A stretch of 64,000 nucleotides of DNA from Aulosira sp. ZfuVER01 (GCA_034530615.2 JAVRCV020000007.1:1-64000); one strand, 5' to 3'. Positions 25,968 to 60,687 are shown, counted from the stretch's first letter. Notes: generated by a model not told the origin, from the letters alone. A program made the numbers and translations.

Positions 25968-25985
25968 AGATGCTGAGTGGAAATT

Positions 25986-42068: not shown

Positions 42069-42098
42069 CTGTTAGTTGCTTCACTGTGGAAAATCGAG

Positions 42099-44441: not shown

Positions 44442-45278
44442 AAGAAAAGTTGAGTTAGTCAGCGTCAATATTTCCCAGCCTAAAGCATGAAAATGTTAAA
44501 ACTTTAAAGGTGATACCCTTCACCCTTGATAAATGAACCTACAGAATCGCGCTTACACAAGCAAAAGCTAGCTACTCTGTGCTTTGTATTACTTAGTTTG
44601 GAAATACCGAATTTTTTGTTATTTCCTGCAAGGTTAAAAGAGTTTGATCGGGAGCAAATTATATTCGCCTATAGTTGGCAAATATCTGCTTACTTGAATG
44701 TTAATAACCTTACTTTTTAAATATGCTCTAAAACTTCTAGTGATACATCAATAGAAATCTTTGACAAGAGAATACATACAAATCCTCAAAATCTTGGACA
44801 TATACATGGCTTTATATGAAGTTTTGCATTCATAATAGGCATCCAAAAGATATTCTTTTTAGTTATTAAAGCACAATGTAATTAAATTATAAAAATCTAA
44901 GTAATATCTTTAAAGAAACTGTCTAGGAAGATGTTCTATAAATAAATTGTTAAGTAGCTAGTCTTTGCAGCACAAGTATGTATACAAAATTATTGTTAGC
45001 TTGAAAATACCTCAGAGGCTTATACTGCAAGGTTAAAGTGTAAAATTAATTTTGCTGAGATACTAAATCTCTTATTTTATTTTGCAGATAGAAAAAATGA
45101 TGTTCTTATTTAAATCTTCATAATTACGAAATCAGTGCTGAGTAATCGACGTTAATATCAACGGAAGCTGACTCAACAATATTGAGATAAGAATAATTAA
45201 CCACCGATACACGCCGATAAATCGAAATGTTTAATAAATATCTATGAGGGTCAAGAGTCAAAATTCCACCAGTTTTTT

Positions 45279-46659: not shown

Positions 46660-48051
46660 ATGTCCAGTGAAAAGAAAAAGCCGGATAGCGAATTTGATAT
46701 TTTCATTGCTAACTCTGTTTATCCAGATGTCGCCCCCATATTTACATATAGTCCAAAGTCACTTGATACGATCAAAGACGACTGTTTTATAGTAATTGAT
46801 ACAAATGCATTGCTTGTCCCTTACAGTATTGGTAAGGAAAGCCTTGAACAAATTCAAATAACTTATGAAAAGCTTGTAGGTGAAAAAAGATTATTGATCC
46901 CAGCCCAAGTTGTAAGAGAGTTTGCCCGAAACAGAGCTAATAAGCTTACTGAACTATTTCAACAATTGAATCGCAAAAGAAATAACTCTCAAGGTTTACA
47001 AAAAGGTAAATATCCTTTACTGGAGTCCCTTCCAGAGTATCAAGAATCAGTACGACTTGAAGGTGAAATAGATAAATTATTGCATCAATATAGGGAATCA
47101 CTTGGCAAGGTGTTAGATCATGTCCGCAATTGGGCTTGGAATGATCCCGTTAGTATTTTATATAGTAAGCTTTTCACTCAAGATGTTGTTTTTGATTACA
47201 ATTTAGAAAAACCCTTTATACAAGATGATTTGAATCGGCGGCAGCTTCATAACTTGCCTCCGGGTTATAAGGATGCTGGAAAACAGGATGAAGGGATAGG
47301 AGATCTTCTCATATGGCATACCATACTTGAAATAGGTAGGACTCATAAAAAAAGTGTAATTTTTGTGTCAGGTGATGAAAAAGCAGACTGGTGGCATAGA
47401 AGTGAAAGCCAAGCTCTCTATCCACGATATGAATTAGTGGATGAGTTTCGTAGAAATTCTGAGGGGCAATCGTTCCATATTATTGCCTTCTCTCGACTTC
47501 TAAATCTTTATGGAGCTAGTGATAAAGTAGTTCAAGAAGTTCGCAAAGAAGAAGTTTTTACACGAGGGGATGAAATTAGATCTGCACAAGCTATCAGAAG
47601 TTCTTTTGACGAACTAATAAGAAAAGAGGTAGTAGCAGTATTAGCCATTCAAAGTTGGTTGAAAACTACTTATGCTATTAATGAGATATATGTAGGGACT
47701 GATCAACTTAGGTTTCTATTAAAAGATAGCCGTGTACCTGCCGATATAGCTTTTGTTGATGATTCACAAAATATTACAGCAGTGGAAGTAATGTTTATGG
47801 ATATTGACAGGGTTCAATCACCAACGCTGCGTATGAGATTAAGAGATAGAAGTCTTTCAGGCTATTACGCAGTCAGTGAAGGCAAGATAAGTACCTATAT
47901 GATTGTAGTTGTAGGAGATAGTGAAGAAACTGTTATTGAAGCAGCAACTAAGTTGGACAGGTCTAGTTCAAGGATTGCAAAAGTATCCTATATATTAGGA
48001 TATCTTGATCAAGATGGTGAGTTTCAAAAGGTATTTAGTGAAACAGACTAA
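46660..48051 (+). CDS. PIN-like domain protein (PIN_8-type) with extra C-terminal domain
   Basis: IVIDTNALL, IPAQVVREF, LPPGYKD, GDLLIWHTI, IFVSGDEKADWW, ELVDEF. Confidence 0.8.
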   Translation: MSSEKKKPDSEFDIFIANSVYPDVAPIFTYSPKSLDTIKDDCFIVIDTNALLVPYSIGKESLEQIQITYEKLVGEKRLLIPAQVVREFARNRANKLTELFQQLNRKRNNSQGLQKGKYPLLESLPEYQESVRLEGEIDKLLHQYRESLGKVLDHVRNWAWNDPVSILYSKLFTQDVVFDYNLEKPFIQDDLNRRQLHNLPPGYKDAGKQDEGIGDLLIWHTILEIGRTHKKSVIFVSGDEKADWWHRSESQALYPRYELVDEFRRNSEGQSFHIIAFSRLLNLYGASDKVVQEVRKEEVFTRGDEIRSAQAIRSSFDELIRKEVVAVLAIQSWLKTTYAINEIYVGTDQLRFLLKDSRVPADIAFVDDSQNITAVEVMFMDIDRVQSPTLRMRLRDRSLSGYYAVSEGKISTYMIVVVGDSEETVIEAATKLDRSSSRIAKVSYILGYLDQDGEFQKVFSETD

Positions 48052-48080: not shown

Positions 48081-48500
48081 ATGAACCAATTCAATTATAT
48101 TTTTAAACAAAATTTGAGGAATAAAATCAATAATCAAATTCTGGAGCATCCTTTTACAGATTATTGGGATATTTTTGTTCTTAAACATCAACATCCAATT
48201 AATATTTCTCTCCATATTGTAGGAATATTCTTTTTTTACGGATTGCTCTTTTCTGCTTGTAAGGTACAAAATTTCTGGTTACTCTTGGGCTTGCCATTAA
48301 CTCAGTTAATTGGATTAACTGGACATTTTTTATTTGAGCGTAGCTATATAGATTTACAAGATGCTGTGTTTTCTTGGCGGGCTTCTTACTGTTTAGGTCG
48401 AATGTTACTGAGGGTTGTAATGGGGAAATATCAAGATGACATTCGCCAACGCCAAGAGATATTAAATAATTATCAATCAAGTAAGTATGCAAATATTTAA
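48081..48500 (+). CDS. Mpo1-like (DUF962) membrane protein
   Basis: KHQHPINISLHIVG and GHFLFE His motifs around TM helices. Confidence 0.7.
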   Translation: MNQFNYIFKQNLRNKINNQILEHPFTDYWDIFVLKHQHPINISLHIVGIFFFYGLLFSACKVQNFWLLLGLPLTQLIGLTGHFLFERSYIDLQDAVFSWRASYCLGRMLLRVVMGKYQDDIRQRQEILNNYQSSKYANI

Positions 48501-49515
48501 TAATTGGAATGTAGTTGCTAAGGGTTGGTATATTGCCTGTTCTAGTAACGACTTACCTAAAAGCAAAGCAAAATCTATAGAAATTTGCGGTCAAAGAATT
48601 GTCATCTTTCGGGGTGAAGATGGACTAGTACGTGCTTTAGATGCTTACTGTCCTCATTTGGGAACAGATTTAGGAATTGGACAGGTTGATGGTAATTGGA
48701 TTCGTTGTGCATTTCATCAATGGGCGTTTGATGAAACAGGATTATGCCAAAATATTCCCTGTCAATCAGAAATTCCGGCTAAAGCGAAAGTACAAGCTTA
48801 TGCAACAGCAGAAAAGTATGGGTTTATCTGGATTTATCCTGATGCGGTAGCGCCTGAAGGGGTGGCTGATTTTGATGAATTAAAGGGTAAAGAAATTATT
48901 GCACAACCTGATACGGCATTTGAAAGAAGTTGTCATCACCATATTTGTATGATGAATGGTATTGATGCCCAACATTTAAAAACAATTCATCGTTTAGATA
49001 TCAAAATGGATTTGTCGCTACATCGCAGCGAATTAGGTACACAAATTGACTTTACAATGCGGGGGCAATTTCCTCAAACAACTTGGCGAGAAAGGTTAGG
49101 GCAAAGATTTTTGGGTTCTACCTATGAGTATTCTATGCGCTATGCTCATGGTTGCATTGGCTTATTAACAATGATGAAAAAAGTGCGGCTTTTCCCACCG
49201 TTGCACATGATTTATGCTTACACTCCAATTGCGCCAGGAAGAACGCGCATTCAACCAATTTATGTATCAGAAAAACGTAAAGGAATTGGAGGATATTTGC
49301 TGAGTAAGTTTTTGCTAATCTGTACTCGGTTGGCTTACTATATGCTCAGAGATGAAGATGGCAAGATTTACGATAATATTCGCTTTAATACAAACTTACT
49401 CCTGAGTATTGATACGCCATTAGCTAAATATATGGAGTATGTAAATCAGTTAGAACCTTCTCGGTGGTCACAAAAGATAGTAAATGCTTTTACATCTGAG
49501 CATAGTGAAGCATAA
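48487..49515 (+). CDS. Rieske non-heme iron oxygenase
   Basis: YCPHLG...RCAFHQW (2Fe-2S); NGIDAQHLKTIH mononuclear Fe motif; EDGKIY. Confidence 0.92.
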   Translation: MQIFNNWNVVAKGWYIACSSNDLPKSKAKSIEICGQRIVIFRGEDGLVRALDAYCPHLGTDLGIGQVDGNWIRCAFHQWAFDETGLCQNIPCQSEIPAKAKVQAYATAEKYGFIWIYPDAVAPEGVADFDELKGKEIIAQPDTAFERSCHHHICMMNGIDAQHLKTIHRLDIKMDLSLHRSELGTQIDFTMRGQFPQTTWRERLGQRFLGSTYEYSMRYAHGCIGLLTMMKKVRLFPPLHMIYAYTPIAPGRTRIQPIYVSEKRKGIGGYLLSKFLLICTRLAYYMLRDEDGKIYDNIRFNTNLLLSIDTPLAKYMEYVNQLEPSRWSQKIVNAFTSEHSEA

Positions 49516-49564
49516 CCCAACATTTAGAATTAGTGTTTATTGGGTTTACTAACGTAAATATACC

Positions 49565-49894
49565 CTAGAAGCGATCGCACTCTATTTCAATCTCTTGAAA
49601 GTCATAATAAATTGAGTCTTCTCTCGCAAAATTATCTTCATCTAAGTAAAGCAAATAATGTTGTTGATATTCGCTAAGAAATCTGTGTACTGCTGGCAAA
49701 ATCTGCTTGATTAGCCAAGGAGAACTTTCATCTGATGGTGGCTGCCAGTACTTTTCTGCATGAAAAACCTGCTCTGCTGAAATTCTTTCACCTTTATCAA
49801 TAATGCCAGGATTTTCCAGTAGCCAATAAGCCCATCGATATCCTGCATCAATATATTTTTTGCAGTCTAAACAAGCAAAATAGCAACAATTCAT
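49565..49894 (-). CDS. Hypothetical protein with CxxC motif
   Basis: 109 aa, FACLDCKKY; flanked by REP-like palindromes. Confidence 0.6.
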   Translation of the reverse strand: MNCCYFACLDCKKYIDAGYRWAYWLLENPGIIDKGERISAEQVFHAEKYWQPPSDESSPWLIKQILPAVHRFLSEYQQHYLLYLDEDNFAREDSIYYDFQEIEIECDRF

Positions 49895-50177
49895 AAAGTT
49901 AATAAAATTAAACTTTAGGGTGTATTATCACTTTAGTGCAATGCACCATCAAAAATTCAAGGTGCGTTAGCCTTTGGCATAACACACCCTACTTTTAATG
50001 TCTAAATTCTTCTTCAATAACTACGGTTTGTCGAGTATCATTAAAGTACTAATAAGTAATAAGTATTGTAAATAACCATTCTGAGATCTGTCACATTACT
50101 CCGTAACAACACTAATTTGCTAGATAAAGTGTTAATACAAAACATCTATTAATCAGATTTTAGGTAAATTCCACATA

Positions 50178-50918
50178 ATGAAGAGTTGGCTGGTTCCTGT
50201 TCAAAAGCTGCAACCAAGCGATCGCATGGCCATGTATGCATTGCTAAATAATCACTTTAAAGGTGTAACCTGGGATGTATTCCAGGCGGATCTAAAGCGC
50301 AAAAACTGGGTGTTGTTGTTGAGAGAAGAAATAACTAATACGCTCAAAGGCTTTTCTACCCTGATGTTGTGTCAGACGAATTTTGCTGGAGAGAAGATTA
50401 CTGTAGTTTATTCTGGCGATACGATTGTCGATCCCAGTGCTTGGTCAAGTACAACACTACCGCGAACTTGGATAGCCGCAGTCAATTTTCTGCGCGAGTA
50501 TTATGCGAACGATAAAATGTACTGGCTGCTAATTTGCTCTGGTTTTCGTACCTATCGCTTTCTCCCTACATTTTGGCAAGAGTTTTACCCCCGCCATGAT
50601 GTAGCAACACCTGCGAATGTTGCGAATTTGATGGCAAATCTGGCACAGGAATACTATGGTGATGCTTACCAAGAAGCAACTGGTATCGTCCGCTTTCAAC
50701 ATCCGCAAATTCTGCGGGAAGGTTTAATAGAAATCCCCACAGGAAAACAAACTAATCCCCATATCCAATTTTTCGAGGAAAAAAACCCAGGCTATCAACT
50801 TGGTGATGAATTGGTTTGTTTAACTGAAATTCGGTATGAGAATCTCACCCGCGCTGGACAAAGAATGTGGCAGTCAGAATCGTTGTTAGAATTTGTGCAA
50901 GATTCTGTACCGATCTAA
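50178..50918 (+). CDS. Uncharacterised GNAT-like/acyltransferase-like protein
   Basis: FQADL.RKNWVLLL...LKGFST...VVYSGDTIVDP.AW...YWLLICSGFRTYRFLP; fold call is inference. Confidence 0.55.
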   Translation: MKSWLVPVQKLQPSDRMAMYALLNNHFKGVTWDVFQADLKRKNWVLLLREEITNTLKGFSTLMLCQTNFAGEKITVVYSGDTIVDPSAWSSTTLPRTWIAAVNFLREYYANDKMYWLLICSGFRTYRFLPTFWQEFYPRHDVATPANVANLMANLAQEYYGDAYQEATGIVRFQHPQILREGLIEIPTGKQTNPHIQFFEEKNPGYQLGDELVCLTEIRYENLTRAGQRMWQSESLLEFVQDSVPI

Positions 50919-50943
50919 AACCTATACGTCCATCAACTTGTGT

Positions 50944-52650
50944 ATGAGATTGAAAAACGACGAGATAGCAATACCTACTACCCTGGAAGCACCACAGCTT
51001 TTCAGTGTCAGTCGCTTGTTTAGTAACCTACGCGGCGATTTAGCGGGAGGACTGACAGCGGCGGTGGTAGCCTTACCTTTAGCATTAGCTTTTGCTGTGG
51101 CTAGTGGTGTGGAACCAAAGGCGGGACTATACACTGCTATTGTGGCAGGAATTGTTGCAGCAATCTTTGGGGGTTCGCCTGTACAGATTACAGGGCCTAC
51201 AGGTGCAATGGCTGTGATTTTGGTGGGAATTGTCGCTAAGTACGGCTTAGAGAAAGTTTGGATTGCTGGGGTAATAGCTGGGATAATCCAGATTGCTTTA
51301 GGGGTTGCTAAACTCGGGCAATTAGTCAAGTTTATTCCTTACCCGGTGACGGCAGGCTTTACTAATGGTATTGCCGTTATTATTTTTTGTGGTCAGTTAA
51401 ATAATTTCTTTGGCTTACAACTACCGCGTCAAGAACATTTTTTGCCGGGACTTTGGCAAAGTTTAACTCATCTAGAAGCGTTAAACTGGGCAGCTGTTGT
51501 ATTAGGAATGCTGGTGATTGCAACCAATATTTTATGGCCCAAGATTAACACTACAATACCAGGTTCTTTAATGGGGCTGGTGTTAGCAACAGCGATCGCA
51601 TCTTATTTACATCTTGATGTCCCCACAATTGGAGCCATTCCCCAAGCTTTACCGATGCTCCAAGGTATTCCCCACTGGAATGATTTTGGCTTGATTCGGG
51701 AACTGATTAATCCAGCTTTGGCTTTAGCAGCACTGGGAAGTATTGAATCGTTACTCTCAGCAGTTGTAGCTGATGGTATGACTGTGAGCGAGAAACACAA
51801 TAGCGATCGCGAATTAATTGGTCAAGGGTTAGCAAATATTATTATTCCATTTTTTGGTGGTATTCCAGCCACAGGTGCGATCGCGCGAACTGCTGTCAAT
51901 GTCCGTTCTGGCGGTAAAACCCGACTGTCTGGGGTAATTCATGGCGTTGCTTTAGCCATTATTGTGTTAACTTTAGCACCCCTAGCAGCGCAGATTCCCT
52001 TAGCAGCACTGGCTGGAATTTTGATGGTGGTTAGTCTGCGGATGATTGAGTGGGAAGCCATTGGCTTACTGCTACGTGCTACCTACTCCGACTTTGCGGT
52101 GATGATTCTCACCTGGTTAGTGACAATATTATTTGACTTGGTTCTCGCTGTTGAAGTGGGATTAATTGCAGCCGGAGCCTTATTTATCAAACGCATGAGC
52201 GATTTAAGCTTGGCGAAAATCCCGGAAACGGAAGTATTTCCCCCTGGTATTCCTCTGGAATTAAGCAAAGAAATTGCGGTGTATCGCGTAGATGGCCCCG
52301 TATTTTTTGGTGCTGCGGAAAGGTTTGTTACCTTTCTACGGGAGCAACCAGAAGTGAAGTATTTAATTCTGCGGTTGCGGTTTGTGCCCAATATGGATAC
52401 GACTGGATTAGTAGCTTTAGAGGATATTTATCACGACTTAGAACGGCATAATTGCCGCTTAATTCTCACAGGTTTACAACCCCAAGTTCAACAATTACTA
52501 GAACGCTCAGGATTGTTAAAAACGATTGGATTATCAAATTGTTTTGAAACAACAACAGATGCTATTTACTCTATAACTCCGCAATCTTCTCAACCTGTAG
52601 CAGCTAATTTTCCATCAAAAGAATTGATGGCATTAAATGATGAAAATTAA
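50944..52650 (+). CDS. SulP/SLC26 inorganic anion transporter with STAS domain
   Basis: GDLAGGLTAAVVALPLALAFA, GPTGAM, ESLLSA, RELIGQGLAN, ATGAIART; STAS GPVFFGAA, DTTGL; ORF from 50893. Confidence 0.93.
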   Translation: MRLKNDEIAIPTTLEAPQLFSVSRLFSNLRGDLAGGLTAAVVALPLALAFAVASGVEPKAGLYTAIVAGIVAAIFGGSPVQITGPTGAMAVILVGIVAKYGLEKVWIAGVIAGIIQIALGVAKLGQLVKFIPYPVTAGFTNGIAVIIFCGQLNNFFGLQLPRQEHFLPGLWQSLTHLEALNWAAVVLGMLVIATNILWPKINTTIPGSLMGLVLATAIASYLHLDVPTIGAIPQALPMLQGIPHWNDFGLIRELINPALALAALGSIESLLSAVVADGMTVSEKHNSDRELIGQGLANIIIPFFGGIPATGAIARTAVNVRSGGKTRLSGVIHGVALAIIVLTLAPLAAQIPLAALAGILMVVSLRMIEWEAIGLLLRATYSDFAVMILTWLVTILFDLVLAVEVGLIAAGALFIKRMSDLSLAKIPETEVFPPGIPLELSKEIAVYRVDGPVFFGAAERFVTFLREQPEVKYLILRLRFVPNMDTTGLVALEDIYHDLERHNCRLILTGLQPQVQQLLERSGLLKTIGLSNCFETTTDAIYSITPQSSQPVAANFPSKELMALNDEN

Positions 52651-52921
52651 CCGCCGATTAAGGGGGATAAACGCCGATTAACGCAGATAAGTTGCGAAGT
52701 TAAAATGTAGCGGCATGACACAACTAAAGTTTGGCATTAGATTTATTGTTTAGAAAGCGCTAAAGCGCAACTACGAACATTTTCTATTGCATCATTTTAG
52801 TTGTGTCAGTGCAGTAGGGTGTGTTATCGCTTTAGCGTAACCCAGTATCAACAATTCTTTTAAATATAGATATTCCCAATTCAAACACGTTAAATACTTC
52901 TGGTAAAAAAGTATAAATTCT

Positions 52922-53977
52922 ATGCATTGTCCCAGCCCAAATTTAATCTTTAATAATCCGAGAAAATTTGTTGAGGGATGGTATTGGGCATTACCATCAC
53001 AAAAGTTAAAGATTGGCAAGGTGAAAGCTGTAACATTACTGGGTAGAAACCTAGCAATTTATCGGGGAGTCAGTGGCCAGGTGGTAGCGGTGGATGCTTA
53101 TTGTCCGCACATGGGCGCACATTTAGCTGAGGGTAAGGTAGAAGGTGATAGTATTCGCTGCTTTTTCCATAATTGGAAATATGATGAACGCGGAATTTGT
53201 ATAGACGTTCCTTCTCAAGGTAAACCTTTACCTGTATGTATCAAAACTTGGTCAACGGCAGAAAAATACGGCATGATTTGGGTGTGGGTAGGAGAAGAAA
53301 AGCCAAGTTCGCTACCTTTTGTCCCAGAATTAGAACAGGTAGACTGTGATTATGTATTGGGGACTCGGTTTATCAAAAACTGCCATCCCAATGTGTTGTT
53401 GATTAATGCGATTGATGCTCACCACTTTAATACAGTTCACAATCTACCTTTAGAAATTGTATTTGATTCCCAAGACTTCAACTCTCACGCTATTACATTC
53501 AGCAATACTACACGCGGTGGTGATGATTCCTGGTTAATCCGTCTGATTCGTCCCTTATACCGCAATGAAGTTACTTATAGTATGTGCTATTGGTATGGCA
53601 GCACTGGTACTGTCACACTAGGGCCAGATTTTCTGCACTTTTACATCATATTTGCGCTGCGAATGACCGAAGGTGGCAAAACCGAAGGGCAAACAATTTT
53701 AGTGACTCCCAAGCGACATGGATATTTAGGATGGGGTGTCAATCGCGCTTTACTGTGGTTAACGCAGCAGGTTGGTAATTACTTCGCTAAAGGCGATACG
53801 CAAGTATTTCAGACAATTCAGTTTGATTTGAAGACACCCACCAAAGCAGATCAATCGATTCTGCAATTTATCCAGCACGTTAATTGCCAAAAAGCCTTAA
53901 GTTGGGGAACCTGGGAAGTTGTTGATAATCCAGAAAAGAGCGATCGCTCTTCTTCATCTACCTCTGTAATGTTTTAG
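52922..53977 (+). CDS. Rieske non-heme iron oxygenase
   Basis: YCPHMGAHL...RCFFHNW; NAIDAHHFNTVH; GDTQVF. Confidence 0.92.
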   Translation: MHCPSPNLIFNNPRKFVEGWYWALPSQKLKIGKVKAVTLLGRNLAIYRGVSGQVVAVDAYCPHMGAHLAEGKVEGDSIRCFFHNWKYDERGICIDVPSQGKPLPVCIKTWSTAEKYGMIWVWVGEEKPSSLPFVPELEQVDCDYVLGTRFIKNCHPNVLLINAIDAHHFNTVHNLPLEIVFDSQDFNSHAITFSNTTRGGDDSWLIRLIRPLYRNEVTYSMCYWYGSTGTVTLGPDFLHFYIIFALRMTEGGKTEGQTILVTPKRHGYLGWGVNRALLWLTQQVGNYFAKGDTQVFQTIQFDLKTPTKADQSILQFIQHVNCQKALSWGTWEVVDNPEKSDRSSSSTSVMF

Positions 53978-53978
53978 C

Positions 53979-54887
53979 ATGACTAACATATATAACATTG
54001 CCGGACTCGACCTGCCGCACGCAGCCCCCGATAACCGATTGCGACGTATACTCAAAGCAGCATTGCCAAATCACAGCAATAATTCTCCGCAGCAGCAATC
54101 AGATTATTGGGATGCGAAATTTTTCAACTTGCATCAAGTCCAAATCTTTCAACAAGCAAGTATAGCCGAACAATCTGCCATACTTGGACTTACTAATCGC
54201 AGCCTGTTAGAGGAATCTTATTTTATTGAGAAAGTAGGCATTGGCTATATGGCAAAGATGGTACTGTTAGCAGAAACAGTTGAGGAGCGAATGCTCTATG
54301 CAATGTTTAGCGCTGATGAAGCTACCCACCTCAACCAAATAACCAATTTTTTACCAGAATCAGAACCAACTAACAGCAACGATCCATTTCTGAGTTTACT
54401 AGCCCAAGTTGTTGAAAGTGCAGACAAAACAGTATTGTTATTTGTGCTTCAGGTAGTACTAGAAGGATGGGGTTTAAGCCATTACCGACGCCTAGCCAAA
54501 GAATGCCACAATCCAGTCTTGGCAGAAGTGTTCGCCAGTTTCCTACACGCAGAAGCACGCCATCACGGTACAGGAACCACCTTATTTAACCAAAATCCAG
54601 TTTCAGCTGACAGCCAAGCAACCATCCTTGATGTGTTGGCAAAATTTCTGTTTATGGTGCAAGTGGGGCCGCAAAACGTCTTATCAGCCATTGAACAAAT
54701 CAAAGGACATCTGACGCGATCGCAAAAAATCCAAATCCTCGAACAATTAGACACCCAAACCCATAGTGGAACCAGATTACAAATATTGCGATCGCTCATA
54801 CAACCAACATCAGCAAAAACCATCCTCCAAACCCTAGATGAACAAGGAGCCTTTGCACCCCTCCCCCCTCATCAATGCGTATATTAA
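53979..54887 (+). CDS. Ferritin-like diiron-carboxylate protein
   Basis: IEK...DEATH...LEGWG...AEARH (E..ExxH twice). Confidence 0.82.
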   Translation: MTNIYNIAGLDLPHAAPDNRLRRILKAALPNHSNNSPQQQSDYWDAKFFNLHQVQIFQQASIAEQSAILGLTNRSLLEESYFIEKVGIGYMAKMVLLAETVEERMLYAMFSADEATHLNQITNFLPESEPTNSNDPFLSLLAQVVESADKTVLLFVLQVVLEGWGLSHYRRLAKECHNPVLAEVFASFLHAEARHHGTGTTLFNQNPVSADSQATILDVLAKFLFMVQVGPQNVLSAIEQIKGHLTRSQKIQILEQLDTQTHSGTRLQILRSLIQPTSAKTILQTLDEQGAFAPLPPHQCVY

Positions 54888-55022
54888 AAATTCACAGATA
54901 CCTCTAATCAAACCTCTGCGTCACTTTGTCTTGAAAAGTTTCCTACGCCGGGAAACCCGGCTTCGAGGAACTTTTCGCTGCGTAAACCTCCGCGCCACTC
55001 TGCGTTAAAAATAAAATCTTTT

Positions 55023-56201
55023 ATGGAAACTACTACATCCAAACTATCAGATAACCCAACTACCTATCGCAAACTACAAATTAACCACACCCGCAACAAA
55101 CAGCAGGATCATACCGCTTTAATGGATGAAGCAACCGCCAAATTCCACTACAAAGATTGCCAAAACGAATATTGGAACCCCGAAGAATTTTCCCTACTTT
55201 ACGGTACACCTTTATGGGAGCAATCCAGCCAACACCAGCGCATTATCTTAAACCAACTTTACTGGGTAGCATACTACTCACAAATCGTTTCCGCCGAGAT
55301 TGCAACCATCTATTTTAATCAAACTAGTGCAGCCGGACTTTACGCTCAAGAAGACTTTCGCTTAATTTGCGATACCTTAGATTTAGAATCCTCGCAAGAA
55401 CGGGCGCACATTAACGCCTTTCGCACAATTGCCAAACAAGTTGAGCAAGCATTATTTGGGGAACTCATATTCACTTACCCCATGCGCGGCCCCTTTACCG
55501 AAACGATGGTTTATGCCGATACTAACGCCTTAAAAACTTGGTGGAAAAAGATTCAATTACAATACTTTGGCTTGATTTCTGCAAATAATACCTTTTTGGC
55601 TTGTCAATATTTCACAGTCCGAGGAGTGCGGACACTCAATGGCAAATTAGTACAGCACAAACTCAGCAATTATTATCAAAAGCATCCTCATCAAAATACT
55701 ACTCCAATTCCTGCCAAAATCTCTTACTATCACTTTTTGGATGAAAGCTTTCACTTCAATAGTTCGACAATTTTATCTCACGATGTTGTCACTTGCCTTC
55801 CTACACCAACTGCATTTGAACGACTAGTTGCTAATTTAGGATTGCTAGGATGTCAGCGCGATCACTTTCACTTTTCATCGGCAATTAACGGGATTTTTTG
55901 GTACGATCCAGCGCTATATTCTCAGATTTATCGCGTGCTGATATCGCCCATTTTTGCTATGAGCGACAAGGATGCTAAAGAAATGATCCGCCGCTGTTTT
56001 ACAGAAGAGTCAGAAGGGCTGCATCGTAGCTTTTTAACTCATCAAGAAGCAATGGCGTCTTATAAAGTGTATGTGGAAAAACTCGATTACCTTTGGCATA
56101 GGAATCGAGAAATGTCACTCATGGCGTATAATTCAATTCCTCAATATTTGGCGACTCAACAAAAAGCTTTTCAACGTTTTAAACAGCAGGTTCAAGTATA
56201 A
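55023..56201 (+). CDS. AurF/CylC-like dimetal-carboxylate enzyme (candidate halogenase or N-oxygenase)
   Basis: YW.PE.SLLYGTPLWE.SS..Q...LNQLYW, SAE, LDLESSQERAHI, HFLDESFH (ExxH plus HxxDExxH). Confidence 0.75.
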   Translation: METTTSKLSDNPTTYRKLQINHTRNKQQDHTALMDEATAKFHYKDCQNEYWNPEEFSLLYGTPLWEQSSQHQRIILNQLYWVAYYSQIVSAEIATIYFNQTSAAGLYAQEDFRLICDTLDLESSQERAHINAFRTIAKQVEQALFGELIFTYPMRGPFTETMVYADTNALKTWWKKIQLQYFGLISANNTFLACQYFTVRGVRTLNGKLVQHKLSNYYQKHPHQNTTPIPAKISYYHFLDESFHFNSSTILSHDVVTCLPTPTAFERLVANLGLLGCQRDHFHFSSAINGIFWYDPALYSQIYRVLISPIFAMSDKDAKEMIRRCFTEESEGLHRSFLTHQEAMASYKVYVEKLDYLWHRNREMSLMAYNSIPQYLATQQKAFQRFKQQVQV

Positions 56202-56273
56202 CGATATCCAAGAAAAACTCCTCAAGACGCAATTACACCTCCTGACTTGAAGGAGCAAGGGGAGATGGGGAGG

Positions 56274-56493
56274 CCTGACAAGTGTAGGTTTTTTACAGCA
56301 ACGCGGAAAATGGGACAAGGGGAGCCACTGCGTTGCGCGGGTTTCCAAGGCACTCCGTTGGGCAGCTTCGCCGACTTGAAGGAAGTGCCGTCGCGTTGTA
56401 GCAAGTGGCGTGGACAAGGAAGAAAAAGCCTTATTCCTATGTTCAAATGAGAGTGCTAACTCACCCTTTTTTGTAAAACCTACACCTGTGAGC
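56274..56493. mobile_element. 220-bp MITE with imperfect TIRs and near-perfect 9-bp TSD, carrying nested hairpin repeats
   Basis: CCTGACAAGTGTAGGTTTTTTACA ... TGTAAAACCTACACCTGTGAGC; flanks ATGGGGAGG (56265-73) and ATGGGGAAG (56494-502). Confidence 0.72.
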
Positions 56494-56622
56494 ATGGGGA
56501 AGCTGGAGGAGAAAAACACTTTCATGCTTGGCAATGAAAAAATTTCATTGGGACTGCCTTATTTTCAAGCTAGCGTCGGATTTTGGTAGCCAACATTGCA
56601 AAAAAACTTAACACACATTTTA

Positions 56623-56672
56623 TGCACACGTGTGCAAAAATAAAATCATCGACTAATGCACACGTGTGCATT
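56623..56672. promoter_or_regulatory. Two perfect palindromic operators TGCACACGTGTGCA (LacI/GalR-type; HrmR/FrtR candidate)
   Basis: Copies at 56623-56636 and 56657-56670 (second extends to an 18-bp palindrome 56655-56672), 30-80 bp upstream of the inositol oxygenase ATG. Confidence 0.8.
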
Positions 56673-56702
56673 GACAATCAAACAACCATTTAAAAACCCG
56701 AT

Positions 56703-57596
56703 ATGTCTCGCACACTAAATGCCATAGAGCAAGCTCAAAACCATCCCTTACATTCCCTAGAAGAATGGGAACAAGACTTACTCAATCGCTATCCCGATCC
56801 AGAAAGCATAGTTAAAGAAGGTAAGGCTAGCGCAGAGTACAGAAATTATGAAACTACTACTAGAGATACTGTTAAAGAATTTTATCGATTAAATCATATT
56901 AATCAAACCTATGATTTCGTATTAAAGAAAGAAGAAGATTTTTCTAAGTTTGATAAGAAAGAAATGTCAATTTGGGATGCTTTGGAATTTTTGAATCAAT
57001 TAGTAGATGATTCAGATCCAGATACAGACTTAGACCAATTACAACACTTGTTACAAACATCAGAAGCTATTCGTGCTGATGGTCATCCTGACTGGATGGT
57101 ACTTACCGGCTTTTTCCATGATATGGGGAAAGTACTTTGTCTGTTTGGTGAACCTCAATGGGCGACTGTAGGCGATACCTATCCTGTAGGTTGTGCATTC
57201 TCTGACAAAATTGTTTTCTCGGAATTTTTTCAAGAGAATCCGGATTACAATAACCCAAAATATAACACTAAATATGGTGTTTATCAGTCGAATTGTGGAT
57301 TGAGTAATGTACATATGTCATGGGGACATGATGAGTATTTTTATCGCATCATGAAACCCTATTTACCTGAACCTGCATTGTACATCCTCCGCTATCACTC
57401 ATTTTATCCGCAACATCGAGAAAATGCATACGAACATTTGATGGATGAACGCGATCGCGAAATGTTTAAGTGGGTGAAGTTATTCAATCCCTACGATTTG
57501 TATTCTAAAAATCCTAATCCTCCAGATTGGCAACAACTCAAGCCATTCTATGAAGATTTAGTGGCTAAATATTTACCCCCGACCATCAAATTCTAA
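56703..57596 (+). CDS. hrmE: myo-inositol oxygenase family protein (hrmE-like)
   Basis: FYRLNHINQT, LVDDSDPD, HLLQTSEAIR, FHDMGK, QWATVGDTYPVGC, MSWGHDEY, RYHSFYP, FNPYDLYSK. Confidence 0.88.
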   Translation: MSRTLNAIEQAQNHPLHSLEEWEQDLLNRYPDPESIVKEGKASAEYRNYETTTRDTVKEFYRLNHINQTYDFVLKKEEDFSKFDKKEMSIWDALEFLNQLVDDSDPDTDLDQLQHLLQTSEAIRADGHPDWMVLTGFFHDMGKVLCLFGEPQWATVGDTYPVGCAFSDKIVFSEFFQENPDYNNPKYNTKYGVYQSNCGLSNVHMSWGHDEYFYRIMKPYLPEPALYILRYHSFYPQHRENAYEHLMDERDREMFKWVKLFNPYDLYSKNPNPPDWQQLKPFYEDLVAKYLPPTIKF

Positions 57597-58527
57597 AGCT
57601 TCAATAGTAACAAAGGTAAGGGTCAGAACACTACACACACATCATATTTAATAGAGCTTGTTGTGCATCATGTTTAAAAGTGATTGAGCAAGCTTAAATC
57701 AGGTGAAGTGTTTCCAAAACTGAACTGCGTCTTGGCAAAGGTAAACTTATAAAACGAGTGTGTAGATGTGCTGGCGCAACAATTAGTCCACAAGTTTTGT
57801 ATTTAGCGCTATTTTATTACGTTAGGTAGAGGAAAATCATAAATTTTTGTAATATTAACCTCTGGAATAGCGATAACAACTTCTGTTAACCAGCATAATT
57901 GGCTCAAGCCGGAAAACAATACGGCAGGCTTTTCAGGCAAATTGCTGTACTTATTATACATGAACATGTCTGTTATTTCTGTTTAATACTTTACGGTTGT
58001 TCAATAATAATGAGCAAACAGCTTACTTGCAAAAATCTAGAATTGTCAATCGAATATTTACCTACCATGCTGTTAACTTTTATGAATGTGTCTGAAAGTG
58101 TGGGGATGAATTTAGTTAAACTGATAAATAAGCTTAAATCTGCTTATATATCAGCGATACCTCTCTAGAAATAGAGAAATAAAATACTCTTATTCCTTGA
58201 GGAAAAGTGTTTTGAGAAAAGAGGTTTATTTTGGCTGGCTTACAAAATAAACGCATAAAACTCGTCTTTATTCACATACTTTCAAATACAGATCACAAAA
58301 AAATGTAAAGATTTGAAGGATTTGAAAGAGTCTAGTTTTGCTTTAAATCCCAAAAAATTTATTTAGTGGAACTCTGAGAAATAACTCAAATCAAGTTAAA
58401 ACACAACAGATTTGAGCAGAGTTTAACTCTCAAAAGTTAGCAGTGCCACTAACTTAGGTCTGAAGTCTTCAGGCCTAGTAGATATTGTGGTGACATTGCA
58501 GATATTTAAATGCGTTTTTGGATATAG

Positions 58528-59541
58528 ATGAATATGAAGAGAATGGCGATCGCAGTTAGCATCTTAGGTTTAATCAGTGGTACTGTTGTTGGTTGCTCAA
58601 ATGGCACTGACAACGACAACGCTGCTACTAACACTGATACCAATACTGCTATCAACACTAGCGCCCACAGTACAGAGAACGGGAAATTACGAACCATTGG
58701 TGTTAGCCTGGGTGACTTAGGTAATCCTTTTTATGTAGCAGTGCAGAAAGGCGCTGAGAGACAAGCCAAGAAAATAGGGAATGGTATCAGAGTTAATTCG
58801 GTTTCCAGTGGCTTTGACCTCAACCAACAAACTAACCAAATCGAAAATTTCACCGCCGCGAATACTGACCTAATTATCCTCAGTGCGGTGGACAAAAAAG
58901 GCGTCAAACCAGCAATCGACCAAGCCAGAAAAGCAGGTAGGGTTGTGGTTGCGGTAGATTCAGCCGTTGATGCAGATGTGGATGCAATGATTAGCTCCAA
59001 CAATACCCAAGCTGGAGAGGTTGCTTGCAAATATATAGGCGATCGCCTTAAAGGTCAAGGTAATGTAGTCATCCTCAACGGTACGCAGATGGACTCCATA
59101 GTCCAGCGCGTTGAAGGCTGTATGACTTCATTGTCCAAATATCCGGGAATCAAAATCCTCTCTAAAGATCAGAATGCAGAAGGGACAAGGGATGGCGGAC
59201 TCAGAGTTATGACAGACTTGCTCACAACCTTTCCCAAGATTGATGCGGTTTTTGCCACTAACGATCAGAGTGGGGTAGGCGCAGATTTAGCCGCCAAGCA
59301 AGCAAGACGCAAAGAATTTTTTATTGTTGGGGTTGACGGTTCGCCAGATGCAACCAAAGCAATGGAAGACAAAGATGGTGTATTTGCGGCAACTGCTGCT
59401 CAAAATCCAGCAGGGATGGCTGAACAAGCGGTTCAAGTTGGTAACGATGTCATCCAAGGCAAAAAACTGAGTAATCCCAACATTCTGGTTCCAGTCAAGT
59501 TAGTCACCCGTGAGAACCTTAGCAGCTATCAAGGCTGGTAG
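58528..59541 (+). CDS. Monosaccharide ABC transporter substrate-binding lipoprotein 1 (RbsB/FrtA-like)
   Basis: Lipobox VVGC; LGNPFY, VVAVD, VFATND, IVGVDG, TAAQNP. Confidence 0.92.
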   Translation: MNMKRMAIAVSILGLISGTVVGCSNGTDNDNAATNTDTNTAINTSAHSTENGKLRTIGVSLGDLGNPFYVAVQKGAERQAKKIGNGIRVNSVSSGFDLNQQTNQIENFTAANTDLIILSAVDKKGVKPAIDQARKAGRVVVAVDSAVDADVDAMISSNNTQAGEVACKYIGDRLKGQGNVVILNGTQMDSIVQRVEGCMTSLSKYPGIKILSKDQNAEGTRDGGLRVMTDLLTTFPKIDAVFATNDQSGVGADLAAKQARRKEFFIVGVDGSPDATKAMEDKDGVFAATAAQNPAGMAEQAVQVGNDVIQGKKLSNPNILVPVKLVTRENLSSYQGW

Positions 59542-59544
59542 TGA

Positions 59545-59626
59545 AGAGGTAGGGAGCAGAGAAGGGGGACAAGGGGGACAAGGAAGACAAGGGGGAAATA
59601 ACCAATGCCCAATGCCCCATGCCCAA
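59545..59626 (+). repeat. GGGGACAAG plus CCCAATG/CCCCATG composite repeat
   Basis: Spacer between the two binding-protein genes; similar block at ~60690-60810. Confidence 0.8.
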
Positions 59627-59652
59627 CTCAAAAACTTTTTTAATGAGGAGAT

Positions 59653-60687
59653 ATGAATGTGAACAAGATTGCGATCGCAGCTAGCATATTAGGCATTCTC
59701 AGTGGTACTGTGATTGGTTGCTCAAATGGCGCTCAAACTGACAATACTGCTACTAACACGGATACTAACACAACCACCAAGACTGCTAGCAATACTAGTG
59801 CCCAGACAAAGACTACCACTGGAGACAAACAATTACGCTCGGTAGCTTTCACCGCTGGGGATTTAAGTAACCCCTTTTTCGTCCTGATGGGTAAGGAAAT
59901 TGAGGCAGAAGCCAAGAAAATCGGCGGCAATGATGTCAAAGTTAGTGTGGTTTCCAGTGCCTATGACCTCAACCAACAAGCCAACCAAATTGAAAACTTT
60001 ACGGCTTCCAATACTGATGTGATTATCCTGAATGCTGCTGATAAAAGTGGCATTAAGCCCGCTGTGGATAAAGCCAAGCAAGCAGGTAGAGTCGTAGTTG
60101 CAGTAGATACAGGTGCAGAGGGAGTAGACGCCACCGTTACCACTAACAATGTGCAAGCGGGAGAAGTTGCTTGTCAATATATTGCTGACCGCCTCAAAGG
60201 CAAAGGCAATATGGTAATCGTCAATGGCCCGGCGGTGGACTCAGTGATTCAACGAGTGAGTGGCTGCGAGAAAGTAATAGCCAAATATCCTGATATCAAA
60301 ATCCTCTCCAAAAACCAGAATGCAGAAGGCAGTCGGGATGGCGGACTGAGAGTGATGACTGACCTACTGACAACCTTCCCTAAGATAGATGCTGTGTTTG
60401 CCATCAACGATCCGAGTGGAGTAGGAGCAGAACTAGCAGCGATCCAAGCACAACGCAAGGATTTCTTTATTGTTGGGGTCGATGGTGCGCCAGAAGCAAT
60501 CAAAGCGATCGCCAATAAAGATGGTATCTATGCGGCGACTGCTACCCAAAATCCACGAGGGATGGCTAGAGAAGCAGTGAAGGTGGGCAACGACATCTTA
60601 CACGGTAAAAAACCGCCTAATTCCACCATTCTGATTCCAGTCAAGCTGATCACAAAAGATAACGTTGCTACAGAAAAAGGCTGGTAA
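59653..60687 (+). CDS. Monosaccharide ABC transporter substrate-binding lipoprotein 2
   Basis: Paralog of 58528-59541; lipobox VIGC; GAGGAG RBS. Confidence 0.92.
   Translation: MNVNKIAIAASILGILSGTVIGCSNGAQTDNTATNTDTNTTTKTASNTSAQTKTTTGDKQLRSVAFTAGDLSNPFFVLMGKEIEAEAKKIGGNDVKVSVVSSAYDLNQQANQIENFTASNTDVIILNAADKSGIKPAVDKAKQAGRVVVAVDTGAEGVDATVTTNNVQAGEVACQYIADRLKGKGNMVIVNGPAVDSVIQRVSGCEKVIAKYPDIKILSKNQNAEGSRDGGLRVMTDLLTTFPKIDAVFAINDPSGVGAELAAIQAQRKDFFIVGVDGAPEAIKAIANKDGIYAATATQNPRGMAREAVKVGNDILHGKKPPNSTILIPVKLITKDNVATEKGW

What the first reader, a model, noticed from the sequence alone, without database searches (positions are those of the whole stretch)
48081..56201. Oxygenase-dense, PKS/NRPS-free cluster built around a CylC/AurF-like dimetal enzyme
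Seen: seven co-oriented genes: Mpo1/DUF962, Rieske, GNAT-like, SulP, second Rieske, ferritin-like diiron, CylC/AurF-like. Five are predicted iron/O2 enzymes, and there is no ACP, fatty acyl-AMP ligase, PKS or NRPS. Known: characterised CylC-type halogenases chlorinate unactivated carbons of ACP-bound fatty acyl chains; yeast Mpo1 is a fatty-acid alpha-oxidation dioxygenase. I recall Rieske-associated CylC homologs being noted in genome surveys without a product, so the cluster type may be catalogued but its chemistry appears unknown. Inference: makes a halogenated or N-oxidised lipid-like metabolite from a free or membrane-bound substrate.
Basis: partly seen in the sequence, partly recalled or inferred. 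Interest (0 to 1): 0.85.

Follow-up and report, generated by a model that had tools for sequence, protein, structure and literature searches.

The report
Fragment of orphan CylC-like oxygenase cassette
Six of the seven genes are one piece of a widespread, already catalogued set of iron-oxygenase genes built around a relative of the chlorinating enzyme CylC; its product is unknown and is likely an oxidised, possibly chlorinated, lipid, while the transporter gene in the middle is a passenger.

Summary
They are not a self-contained cluster.

Six of them (Mpo1-like, Rieske A, GNAT-fold, Rieske B, ferritin-like diiron, CylC-like) belong to the 'Rieske-containing' CylC-homologue cluster catalogued by Eusebio et al. 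2021, which has no known product. This scan has met the same cluster type in at least 8 other genomes.

Elsewhere the cassette also carries a 2Fe-2S ferredoxin, a third Rieske oxygenase, a membrane fatty-acid hydroxylase, a hexapeptide acyltransferase, a GH3 adenylating amide synthetase and an amidohydrolase. It is syntenic in Cyanobacteria, Sericytochromatia, Bdellovibrionota, Myxococcota and Planctomycetota. In this genome those genes are intact but scattered over three further places.

SulP and the downstream MIOX are absent from all 25 related cyanobacterial loci, so they are passengers.

The CylC-like protein keeps both halogenase motifs. It sits in a sister clade to the ACP-dependent halogenases and carries Gln where they, and the AurF family, have Glu (38 of 38 against 22 of 22).

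Halogenation remains possible but untested; N-oxidation is unlikely. This is a new, rearranged member of a known orphan cluster type, of moderate interest.

The parts
48081..48500 (+). Mpo1-like (DUF962) small membrane protein; accessory member of the cassette
   Evidence: PF06127 at 35.8 bits against a cut-off of 24. Four invariant His plus E86 and D91/D94 in 8 orthologues. One hydrophobic segment by a hydropathy scan. Found in 14 of 401 phylum genomes, all 14 among the 35 that hold the CylC-like orthologue. Adjacent in 8 of 25 loci. Fused to the amidohydrolase in L037 and L050.
48487..49515 (+). Rieske A: Rieske [2Fe-2S] plus mononuclear-iron oxygenase, alpha-only KshA/SxtT/VanA type
   Evidence: Rieske domain at 86.8 bits. 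CPH...CAFH and D-x2-H-x4-H are read in the translation. Best solved relatives are KshA (E 1.9e-21), SxtDIOX/SxtT and NdmA. An orthologue at 44% identity or more lies in 16 of 25 loci. Overlaps the Mpo1-like gene by 14 nt.
49516..50177 (.). Unusually long spacer (662 nt) holding a short dispersed repeat
   Evidence: Positions about 380-480 of the spacer match 20 other places in the genome. The same spacer is 157-258 nt in L033 and L035. The antisense ORF at 49565-49894 has no NCBIfam hit and was not scanned against Pfam.
50178..50918 (+). GNAT-fold protein of a family without a Pfam model; predicted acyltransferase
   Evidence: AF2 pLDDT 89.2 and pTM 0.85. Foldseek PDB E 1.8e-6. VIA-wide Z 12.7 to NatD, 11.5 to LasI and 10.8 to FeeM, which does not discriminate among GNATs. 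In 22 of 25 loci. dN/dS 0.16 against the same-genus genome.
50944..52650 (+). SulP/SLC26 anion transporter with STAS domain: a passenger inside the cluster (the ORF can be read from TTG at 50893; ATG at 50944 is the likelier start)
   Evidence: Pfam 290.9 bits; NCBIfam DauA 446.8 bits, below its 614 cut-off. In 0 of 25 ortholog loci. Its orthologues (81-96% identity) occur in 12 other genomes of the 60 searched in this family, including G098 and G065, which lack the CylC-like gene. Beside cluster genes in only 1 of 9 loci, the same-genus genome.
52922..53977 (+). Rieske B: second Rieske/mononuclear-iron oxygenase; core member
   Evidence: Rieske domain at 80.5 bits. CPH...CFFH and D-x2-H-x4-H in the translation. 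KshA E 6.7e-25 and SxtDIOX/SxtT about 1e-19. In 23 of 25 loci. dN/dS 0.14.
53979..54887 (+). Ferritin-like diiron-carboxylate protein; core member, starts 1 nt after Rieske B ends
   Evidence: Invariant E84, E114, H117, E162, E192 and H195 in 20 orthologues. AF2 pLDDT 87.8. Only weak fold matches, all ferritin-like: PaaA-like 4mud at E 6.6e-3, plus ADO, R2lox and RNR R2. In 23 of 25 loci.
55023..56201 (+). CylC-like dimetal-carboxylate enzyme of the Rieske/PriA clade
   Evidence: PF28091 'CylC-like'. E92, E122-x2-Q125-E126-x2-H129 and H237-x2-D240-E241-x2-H244 are invariant. Q211 is present in 38 of 38 clade members, against E in 12 of 12 FAAL/ACP-linked, 2 of 2 BrtJ-like and 8 of 8 AurF-family rows. 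The clade has support 100/99. It is the only copy in the genome. dN/dS 0.086.

Best explanation
The six genes Mpo1-like, Rieske A, GNAT-fold, Rieske B, ferritin-like and CylC-like are one fragment of the 'Rieske-containing' CylC-homologue cassette. That cassette is kept together or co-inherited in several bacterial phyla. It is predicted to tailor a fatty-acyl-derived, probably amide-linked, lipid by iron/O2 chemistry that may include chlorination.

Shown:
- The cassette, its gene order and its spread across phyla.
- Its dispersal in this genome into four places: window 48.1-56.2 kb; Fer2 plus Rieske C at C7:68.2-69.8 kb, inverted; FA_hydroxylase, hexapeptide transferase and GH3 on C8; the amidohydrolase on C83.
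- Purifying selection on the window genes.
- SulP and MIOX are not members.

Inferred working model:
- GH3 would adenylate a carboxylic acid and join it to an amine.
- The GNAT-fold protein and the membrane-anchored hexapeptide transferase would add or move acyl groups.
- The ferredoxin would feed electrons to three Rieske monooxygenases.
- The membrane FA_hydroxylase, the ferritin-like protein and the CylC-like protein would functionalise unactivated C-H bonds by hydroxylation, desaturation or chlorination.
- The Mpo1-like protein would shorten a 2-hydroxy acyl chain by alpha-oxidation.
- The amidohydrolase would release or recycle the amide.
- The substrate would be free or membrane-bound rather than carrier-bound.
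For: Cluster type in print: Eusebio 2021 lists 36 Rieske-containing clusters with no product, no carrier protein, acyltransferases and desaturases, and proposes fatty-acid-derived substrates.

Synteny in 25 cyanobacterial and Sericytochromatia loci: GNAT in 22, Rieske B in 23, ferritin-like in 23, Rieske A in 16 and Mpo1-like in 8. In 6 of the 13 of those loci whose flanking ORFs I sent to Pfam, the run Fer2, Rieske C, FA_hydroxylase, hexapeptide transferase, GH3 was confirmed.

Synteny in 19 non-cyanobacterial loci: CylC-like followed by Fer2 and Rieske C in 17, GH3 in 15.

Co-inheritance: 34 of the 35 genomes with the CylC-like orthologue have a GH3 hit. The one miss is an 81%-complete genome. 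All 32 GH3 hits at E <= 1e-80 fall inside those 35 genomes. This holds even where the genes lie megabases apart (G184, G206). Mpo1-like is in 14 of 401 genomes, all 14 among the 35.

Own genome: full-length intact copies of all the missing members.

Purifying selection: dN/dS 0.09-0.19 at dS about 0.6 against the same-genus genome.

Membrane link: hydrophobic segments in Mpo1-like, FA_hydroxylase and the hexapeptide transferase.

Active site: both halogenase motifs are present (motifs as given).
Against: - No product, substrate or activity is known for any member of this clade (searches found none).
- The CylC-like protein is in the sister clade to the proven halogenases.
- It carries Gln at the position whose Ala variant abolishes chlorination in NocO.
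- The GNAT fold match does not point to a substrate.
- Rieske oxygenases plus an amidohydrolase would also fit a catabolic pathway.
- The amide-lipid idea rests on family names alone (GH3, GNAT, Mpo1, FA_hydroxylase).
- Co-expression of the four scattered pieces is untested.
- Related genomes are not independent, so the co-occurrence counts overstate the support.
Confidence: 0.55

Rival explanations
1. Same cassette and same kind of lipid substrate, but the CylC-like enzyme of this clade is a hydroxylase, desaturase or other oxidase rather than a halogenase, so the product carries no halogen.
For: - The clade is separate from all proven halogenases (support 100/99).
- Gln replaces the Glu that is invariant in 14 of 14 halogenase-type and 8 of 8 AurF-family rows.
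- NocO E252A is inactive.
- By recollection, not from any call: no chlorinated lipid is reported from the much-studied Synechocystis strains that carry the core genes.
Against: - Eight of the nine signature residues, including the halogenase-specific Gln of ExxQExxH, are invariant.
- Gln can still accept a hydrogen bond and cannot fill the coordination site proposed to hold chloride. The change is therefore compatible with, or even favourable to, halide binding.
Confidence: 0.3
2. One reading: a self-contained seven-gene cluster, SulP included, that makes a halogenated or N-oxidised lipid. SulP might supply the anion.
For: - The seven genes are co-oriented with short gaps. SulP starts 25 nt after the GNAT gene.
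- The RieskeA-GNAT-SulP order is kept in the same-genus genome.
- By recollection: some SLC26 transporters carry halides.
Against: - SulP is in 0 of 25 ortholog loci.
- Its orthologues lie away from cluster genes in 8 of 9 loci, and occur in genomes without the cassette.
- Its dS (0.28) is half that of its neighbours (0.57-0.61).
- The cassette needs genes that lie outside the seven.
- The protein is outside the AurF family.
Confidence: 0.07
3. The cassette is catabolic or detoxifying. Rieske mono-oxygenases or demethylases with their ferredoxin, plus an amidohydrolase, would break down an exogenous or membrane-derived compound.
For: - The nearest solved Rieske relatives include degradative enzymes: KshA, DdmC, NdmA/B and phthalate dioxygenase.
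- Rieske C has a VanA_C domain.
- An amidohydrolase is present.
Against: - Two to three acyltransferases and an ATP-dependent amide synthetase are conjugating, not degrading, enzymes.
- No conserved regulator or uptake system was seen in the Pfam scans of the loci.
- SxtT-type biosynthetic Rieske enzymes are equally close.
Confidence: 0.08

Closest known systems
'Rieske-containing' (and 'PriA-containing') CylC-homologue gene clusters, Eusebio et al. 2021, BMC Genomics 22:633 (PMC8406957)
   Same: - A single CylC homologue of the Rieske/PriA clade.
- Two to four Rieske proteins.
- A ferritin-like protein.
- A fatty-acid hydroxylase/sterol desaturase family protein and acyltransferases.
- No carrier protein.
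- No known product.
- Members dispersed in some genomes, as the paper reports for Synechocystis.
   Different: - This copy is split over four places in the genome.
- It has a SulP gene between the GNAT and Rieske B genes.
- A sugar/inositol uptake island lies between the CylC-like gene and an inverted Fer2-Rieske C pair.
- The passages I read do not mention GH3, the Mpo1-like protein or the amidohydrolase as members. I did not see the paper's supplementary figures S4/S5 or Table S4, which may show them.
CylC / NocO / BrtJ dimetal-carboxylate halogenases (Biochemistry 2025, PMC12101540)
   Same: - Pfam CylC-like.
- ExxQExxH and HxxDExxH motifs and the helix-1 Glu.
- A predicted 3-His/3-Glu diiron site.
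- Monophyletic with them against the AurF family.
   Different: - 25-31% identity, and about 390 against 452-467 residues.
- Sister clade, not within.
- Gln in place of the Glu equivalent to NocO E252 / AurF E196. That paper mentions 'a small subset' with Gln; here it is shown to define the whole Rieske clade, 38 of 38.
- No FAAL, ACP or PKS neighbours, whereas all 13 paralogue loci I examined have them.
AurF / CmlI arylamine N-oxygenases (PF11583)
   Same: - Ferritin-like four-helix-bundle diiron fold family.
- Shared E...ExxH...HxxDExxH skeleton.
   Different: - Below the Pfam cut-off, 21.9 against 29.6 bits.
- No hit to any solved AurF or CmlI chain by sequence or profile.
- Gln where the 8 AurF-family rows have Asp or Glu.
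- Gln at the seventh-ligand Glu.
- Separated from the AurF family in the tree.

Membership tests
Dimetal-carboxylate halogenases (CylC/NocO/BrtJ) | ExxQExxH motif | tested here: met
   E122, Q125, E126 and H129 are invariant in 52 of 52 CylC-like rows. The motif is as defined.
Dimetal-carboxylate halogenases (CylC/NocO/BrtJ) | HxxDExxH motif plus the helix-1 Glu | tested here: met
   H237, D240, E241, H244 and E92 are invariant in 52 of 52 rows.
Dimetal-carboxylate halogenases (CylC/NocO/BrtJ) | Ninth signature residue: the Glu equivalent to NocO E252 / AurF E196 | tested here: not met
   Q211 here and in 38 of 38 Rieske-clade rows. Glu in 12 of 12 FAAL/ACP-linked, 2 of 2 BrtJ-like and 8 of 8 AurF-family rows. 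NocO E252A keeps its iron but loses activity.
Dimetal-carboxylate halogenases (CylC/NocO/BrtJ) | Groups within the clade that holds the characterised, carrier-dependent halogenases | tested here: not met
   Falls in the sister clade (38 rows, 100/99). The FAAL/ACP-linked plus BrtJ-like rows form their own clade (14 rows, 100/99). The outgroup is 8 PF11583 proteins. The 'canonical' rows were identified by context, not by name.
Dimetal-carboxylate halogenases (CylC/NocO/BrtJ) | Acyl-ACP substrate: FAAL and ACP genes alongside | tested here: not met
   No PP-binding or AMP-binding domain in the 48 window ORFs scanned. No PP-binding match on contig C7.
Dimetal-carboxylate halogenases (CylC/NocO/BrtJ) | O2- and halide-dependent C-H halogenation | not testable with these tools
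   Needs an enzyme assay or the metabolite.
AurF/CmlI N-oxygenases (PF11583) | Score over the Pfam gathering cut-off | tested here: not met
   21.9 bits against 29.6. G000 has no PF11583 match at E <= 1e-10.
AurF/CmlI N-oxygenases (PF11583) | Seven-ligand site with the third-helix Glu, and Asp/Glu before ExxH | tested here: not met
   Q211 and Q125, where the 8 AurF-family rows have Glu (8 of 8) and Asp or Glu (8 of 8).
'Rieske-containing' CylC-homologue cluster (Eusebio 2021) | Two to four Rieske-domain proteins with a single CylC homologue of the Rieske/PriA clade | tested here: met
   Rieske A and B lie in the window. Rieske C lies at C7:68263-69282. There is one CylC-like gene in the genome.
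'Rieske-containing' CylC-homologue cluster (Eusebio 2021) | Sterol desaturase / fatty-acid hydroxylase family protein in the cluster | tested here: inconclusive
   Not in the window. An intact FA_hydroxylase orthologue (77-81% identity) lies on another contig, C8:68364-69104, beside the hexapeptide transferase and GH3. The paper says 'most', not all, clusters contain one.
Mpo1 / DUF962 (PF06127) | Pfam score over the cut-off, and conserved His residues | tested here: met
   35.8 bits against 24. H23, H36, H45 and H82 are invariant in 8 orthologues. That conserved His residues are needed in yeast Mpo1 is recalled, not checked here. The dioxygenase activity is not testable.
GNAT acyl-CoA N-acyltransferase superfamily | GNAT fold | tested here: met
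   Foldseek E 1.8e-6. VIA Z 10-12.7 over about 140-170 residues to many GNATs. No Pfam model matches at the default threshold; Acetyltransf_9 matches 5 of 19 members, with a best E of 0.039.
Rieske non-haem iron oxygenase, alpha3 KshA/VanA/SxtT type | CxH...CxxH Rieske ligands and D-x2-H-x4-H iron motif | tested here: met
   Both motifs are read in both translations.
SulP/SLC26 as a member of this cluster | Conserved with the other genes | tested here: not met
   In 0 of 25 ortholog loci and 1 of 9 SulP-orthologue loci.

The most novel reading that the evidence does not exclude
The Rieske-clade CylC-like enzymes are carrier-protein-independent C-H halogenases in which the superfamily's seventh-ligand Glu has been replaced outright by Gln to free a halide site. 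The 10-12 gene cassette, shared by cyanobacteria, Sericytochromatia and predatory Bdellovibrionota, makes a so far unseen chlorinated, heavily oxidised lipoamino-acid-type membrane lipid or signal.
Probability: 0.22. Interest if true: 0.75.

Novelty: new member of a known kind. Interest (0 to 1): 0.4.

Why it matters
The Rieske clade is the largest category of CylC-homologue clusters in cyanobacteria: 36 of 95 in Eusebio 2021. It reaches into at least four other phyla, yet neither its product nor the reaction of its CylC-like enzyme is known.

A halogenase or oxidase for unactivated carbons that does not need an ACP-tethered substrate would be a useful biocatalyst. A lipid shared by phototrophs and bacterial predators would be of biological interest.

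This particular locus adds three things:
- It shows that the set stays intact and under purifying selection when scattered.
- It separates passengers (SulP, MIOX) from members.
- It ties the Glu-to-Gln change to the whole clade.

It does not reveal the chemistry.

Tried and rejected
- **Solved structures by sequence.** The CylC-like protein gave no hit to any solved chain, either as a single sequence or as a 30-row profile, at E <= 10. The GNAT profile gave nothing meaningful.
- **Ferritin-like protein.** The PDB profile gave only weak MiaE, ADO and designed-diiron hits, E 0.03-0.6. Foldseek gave no match at E <= 0.001.
- **Expression.** The look-up of sequencing runs listed no RNA holder, so co-expression could not be looked at.
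- **Complex prediction.** I wanted to ask complex prediction whether the ferritin-like and CylC-like proteins bind. The queue was full and no job ran, so this stays open.
- **Apparent fusion.** A 741-aa ferritin-like/CylC-like 'fusion' ORF in L050 and G055/G115 was rejected. The two genes are in different frames and the long ORF is an upstream over-extension.
- **Amidohydrolase as oxygenase.** I considered whether the amidohydrolase is an 'amidohydrolase-related dinuclear oxygenase'. Those belong to PF04909 (passages read), whereas this one matches Amidohydro_1/3.
- **Terminators and promoters.** The scan gave no more sites than shuffled sequence.
- **Literature.** Searches for a characterised product found none: 'dimetal-carboxylate halogenase' from 2022; sll0263-sll0266; GH3 + Rieske + fatty acid hydroxylase + cyanobacteria + gene cluster; CylC + Synechocystis + diiron; GH3 + Rieske + cyanobacteria to 2020.
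- **A 2014 mention.** I could not confirm this.
- **Iron response.** sll0266 is down-regulated on iron starvation in PMC3516471 (one table row read).

Full report
**1. Observation**

The window has seven co-oriented ORFs at 48081-56201.

| Coordinates | Identity | Evidence |
|---|---|---|
| 48081-48500 | Mpo1-like | 35.8 bits, cut-off 24 |
| 48487-49515 | Rieske A | 86.8 bits |
| 50178-50918 | no family hit | see below |
| 50893/50944-52650 | Sulfate_transp + STAS | 290.9 and 72.8 bits |
| 52922-53977 | Rieske B | 80.5 bits |
| 53979-54887 | Ferritin_2 | 27.2 bits |
| 55023-56201 | weak AurF | 21.9 bits, below the 29.6 cut-off |

- The 246-aa protein folds with confidence (pLDDT 89.2) into a GNAT fold. 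Foldseek gives E 1.8e-6. VIA gives Z 10-12.7 to many GNATs, including LasI and FeeM, with nothing standing out.
- The ferritin-like protein has invariant E84, E114-x2-H117, E162 and E192-x2-H195 in 20 orthologues. Its fold matches are weak and all ferritin-like.
- The last protein carries the newer Pfam family PF28091 'CylC-like' in precomputed annotations.
- Both Rieske proteins show CxH...CxxH and D-x2-H-x4-H in their translations. Their nearest solved relatives are KshA, SxtT/SxtDIOX, DdmC and NdmA/B.
- No PP-binding, AMP-binding, PKS or NRPS domain occurs in the 48 window ORFs scanned. None of the genome's 24 PP-binding matches is on this contig.

**2. What it belongs to**

Eusebio et al. 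2021 (PMC8406957; passages read) sorted 95 clusters with CylC homologues into seven categories.
- The most abundant category, n = 36, is 'Rieske-containing'. It has two to four Rieske proteins, mostly a sterol-desaturase family protein, one CylC homologue, no carrier protein and no known product.
- A related 'PriA-containing' type occurs in Synechocystis, where the remaining functions are dispersed in the genome.
- The homologues of these two types form one well-supported clade, sister to all others. They share a similarity-network cluster with a few deltaproteobacterial and melainabacterial sequences.
- The authors propose substrates from central fatty-acid metabolism and note that activity may not be limited to halogenation.

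This scan has also met the same cluster type in at least 8 other genomes.

**3. Distribution and synteny**

In 401 genomes of the phylum, 35 hold an orthologue (54-100% identity, E < 1e-150). A further 12 hold only weaker or partial matches, most of them paralogues at 30-38% identity.

I fetched 20 kb around 25 orthologues and compared them with the window's proteins.

| Gene | Loci with it, of 25 |
|---|---|
| GNAT | 22 |
| Rieske B | 23 |
| Ferritin-like | 23 |
| Rieske A | 16 |
| Mpo1-like | 8 |
| SulP | 0 |
| MIOX | 0 |
| Upstream PIN protein | 0 |

The usual order is: amidohydrolase, Mpo1-like, Rieske A, GNAT, Rieske B, ferritin-like, CylC-like, then five more genes. In 6 of the 13 loci whose ORFs I sent to Pfam, those five were confirmed as a 2Fe-2S ferredoxin, a third Rieske oxygenase (VanA_C type), FA_hydroxylase, a hexapeptide-repeat transferase and a GH3-family enzyme. 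In L037 and L050 the amidohydrolase and the Mpo1-like domain are one 731-732-aa protein.

A scan of one genome per species found 436 relatives. Named contigs with 57-85% identical proteins come from Sericytochromatia, Bacteriovoracaceae/Halobacteriovorax, Silvanigrellaceae, Oligoflexia, Myxococcota and Planctomycetota. Others come from bins labelled Flavobacteriaceae, Sulfitobacter, Elusimicrobia, Gammaproteobacteria and Rickettsiales. In 19 such loci the CylC-like gene is followed by Fer2 and Rieske C in 17, and GH3 is present in 15. An SDR often lies between the GNAT and ferritin-like genes.

**4. Co-inheritance**
- A GH3 homologue is found in 34 of the 35 genomes with the CylC-like orthologue. 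The miss, G115, is 81% complete.
- All 32 genomes with a GH3 hit at E <= 1e-80 are among those 35. The 13 hits in other genomes are weaker, E from 2e-67 to 1e-24.
- This holds where the two genes lie far apart on one chromosome (G184, G206).
- The Mpo1-like protein is found in 14 of 401 genomes, all among the 35.
- Related genomes are not independent, so these counts show linkage of the set, not a statistic.

**5. This genome**

The other members are present and full-length but scattered.
- Fer2 and Rieske C lie at C7:68263-69780 on the opposite strand.
- FA_hydroxylase, hexapeptide transferase and GH3 lie at C8:68364-71300, with a weak PlsC-type acyltransferase before them and an SDR after.
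- The amidohydrolase lies at C83:48424-50121.
- Between the CylC-like gene and the inverted Fer2-Rieske C pair lie MIOX, two sugar-binding proteins, an ABC ATPase and permease, an OprB porin, an MFS sugar transporter and an aldose epimerase. This is a sugar/inositol island, not part of the cassette.
- In the same-genus genome G180 the breaks differ. RieskeA-GNAT-SulP sit on one contig. Rieske B, ferritin-like, CylC-like, Fer2, a DNA methylase, Rieske C, FA_hydroxylase and the hexapeptide transferase sit on another.
- The spacers carry short repeats with 10-39 other matches in the genome.
- The window genes are under purifying selection against G180: dN/dS is 0.086 for CylC-like, 0.19 for ferritin-like, 0.14 for Rieske B and 0.16 for GNAT, at dS about 0.6.

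**6. SulP**
- Its orthologues (81-96% identity) occur in 12 other genomes of the 60 searched in this family, two of which (G098, G065) lack the CylC-like gene.
- In the nine loci fetched, cluster genes flank it only in the same-genus genome.
- Its dS against G180 is 0.28, half that of its neighbours.
- It is a passenger. The idea that it supplies halide has no support beyond adjacency in one genus.

**7. The CylC-like protein**
- Paralogues of 452-467 aa at 25-31% identity lie beside AMP-binding and/or PP-binding genes in 13 of 13 loci. Among the ORFs I sent, 11 loci had a PP-binding gene and 10 an AMP-binding gene. I use these as the carrier-dependent type.
- Two 402-418-aa paralogues sit with a KAS III-like enzyme, a glycosyltransferase and an ABC exporter. 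I call these BrtJ-like from context; the label rests on recollection of the bartoloside cluster.
- I rooted a tree with eight proteins that pass the PF11583 cut-off. In it the CylC-like proteins split into the carrier-dependent plus BrtJ-like clade (14 rows) and the Rieske clade (38 rows, including the window). Each clade has support 100/99 (quick tree).
- The motifs that define the halogenases are ExxQExxH and HxxDExxH. Both, together with the helix-1 Glu, are invariant in all 52 CylC-like rows.
- At window position 211 the Rieske clade has Gln in 38 of 38 rows. The other 14 CylC-like rows and all 8 AurF-family rows have Glu.
- By the NocO paper this is the residue equivalent to AurF E196 and NocO E252. 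It is predicted to swing out of the first sphere and leave a site for chloride. Its Ala variant keeps iron but loses activity. [quoted passage not shown]
- My addition is that the Gln marks the entire Rieske clade. It neither proves nor excludes halogenation. Gln cannot occupy the metal site and can still accept a hydrogen bond.

**8. Mechanism**

The shown part is the parts list and its linkage. The rest is inferred from family names.
- An adenylating amide synthetase (GH3), two or three acyltransferases and an amidohydrolase point to an acyl-amide conjugate.
- Three hydrophobic members (Mpo1-like, FA_hydroxylase, hexapeptide transferase) point to a membrane-associated substrate.
- A ferredoxin-fed battery of three Rieske, two soluble diiron and one membrane diiron enzymes points to several C-H functionalisations.
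- My odds for 'oxidised acyl-derived, probably amide-linked lipid' are about 0.55. Within that, halogenation by the CylC-like enzyme is roughly even.

**9. Verdict**

The locus is real and correctly read gene by gene. It is a rearranged fragment of a known orphan cluster type, with one passenger gene inside it. The chemistry stays unknown. The locus is of moderate interest as an instance; the cluster type as a whole remains a good target.

Noticed in passing
window 56703-63392, continuing to G000:C7:~68200: MIOX (370.9 bits), two paralogous sugar-binding proteins, an ABC ATPase and a permease are followed by an OprB porin, an MFS sugar transporter and an aldose 1-epimerase. This looks like an inositol/sugar uptake island wedged between the CylC-like gene and the inverted Fer2-Rieske C pair.
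   Followed up: partly
window 50944-52650: Against the same-genus genome, SulP has dS 0.28 while the flanking cluster genes have 0.57-0.61. This may mean a different history, such as recent exchange, or stronger codon constraint.
   Followed up: no
window 49516-50177, 52651-52921, 54888-55022, 56202-56702: Each spacer in the cluster carries short dispersed repeats, with 20, 25, 10 and 39 other matches in the genome respectively. They may be linked to the rearrangements of the cassette in this genus.
   Followed up: partly
window 46660-48051: A PIN_8-domain protein (126.3 bits) ends 29 nt before the Mpo1-like gene on the same strand. It is found in none of the 25 related loci.
   Followed up: partly
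G000:C33:22552-23556 (L176:4505-5617): A second copy of Rieske B (58% identity) stands alone, near a TldD/PmbA-type peptidase gene and a Cas6-like gene.
   Followed up: no
L037:3418-5613 and L050:2891-5089: The amidohydrolase and the Mpo1-like domain are fused in one 731-732-aa protein in two distant genomes. This argues that the two act on the same molecule.
   Followed up: partly
tree: The Sericytochromatia and non-cyanobacterial CylC-like proteins form one group (SH-aLRT 99) nested among those of photosynthetic cyanobacteria. Sericytochromatia rows are mixed with Bacteriovoracaceae and Myxococcota rows. This suggests transfer of the cassette between phyla. No topology test was run.
   Followed up: no
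window 35858-44468 (- strand): A CHAT-TPR protein (869 aa), a TPS-secretion-domain protein (1168 aa) and a DUF11/RTX-repeat protein (789 aa) lie in a row upstream of the cluster.
   Followed up: no
window 23427-26762 (- strand): An RCC-reductase-like protein lies next to a CN-hydrolase and an aldehyde dehydrogenase. Other oxygenase-type genes in the window are Asp/Arg hydroxylase-like at 2043-2846 and PhyH at 16059-16973.
   Followed up: no
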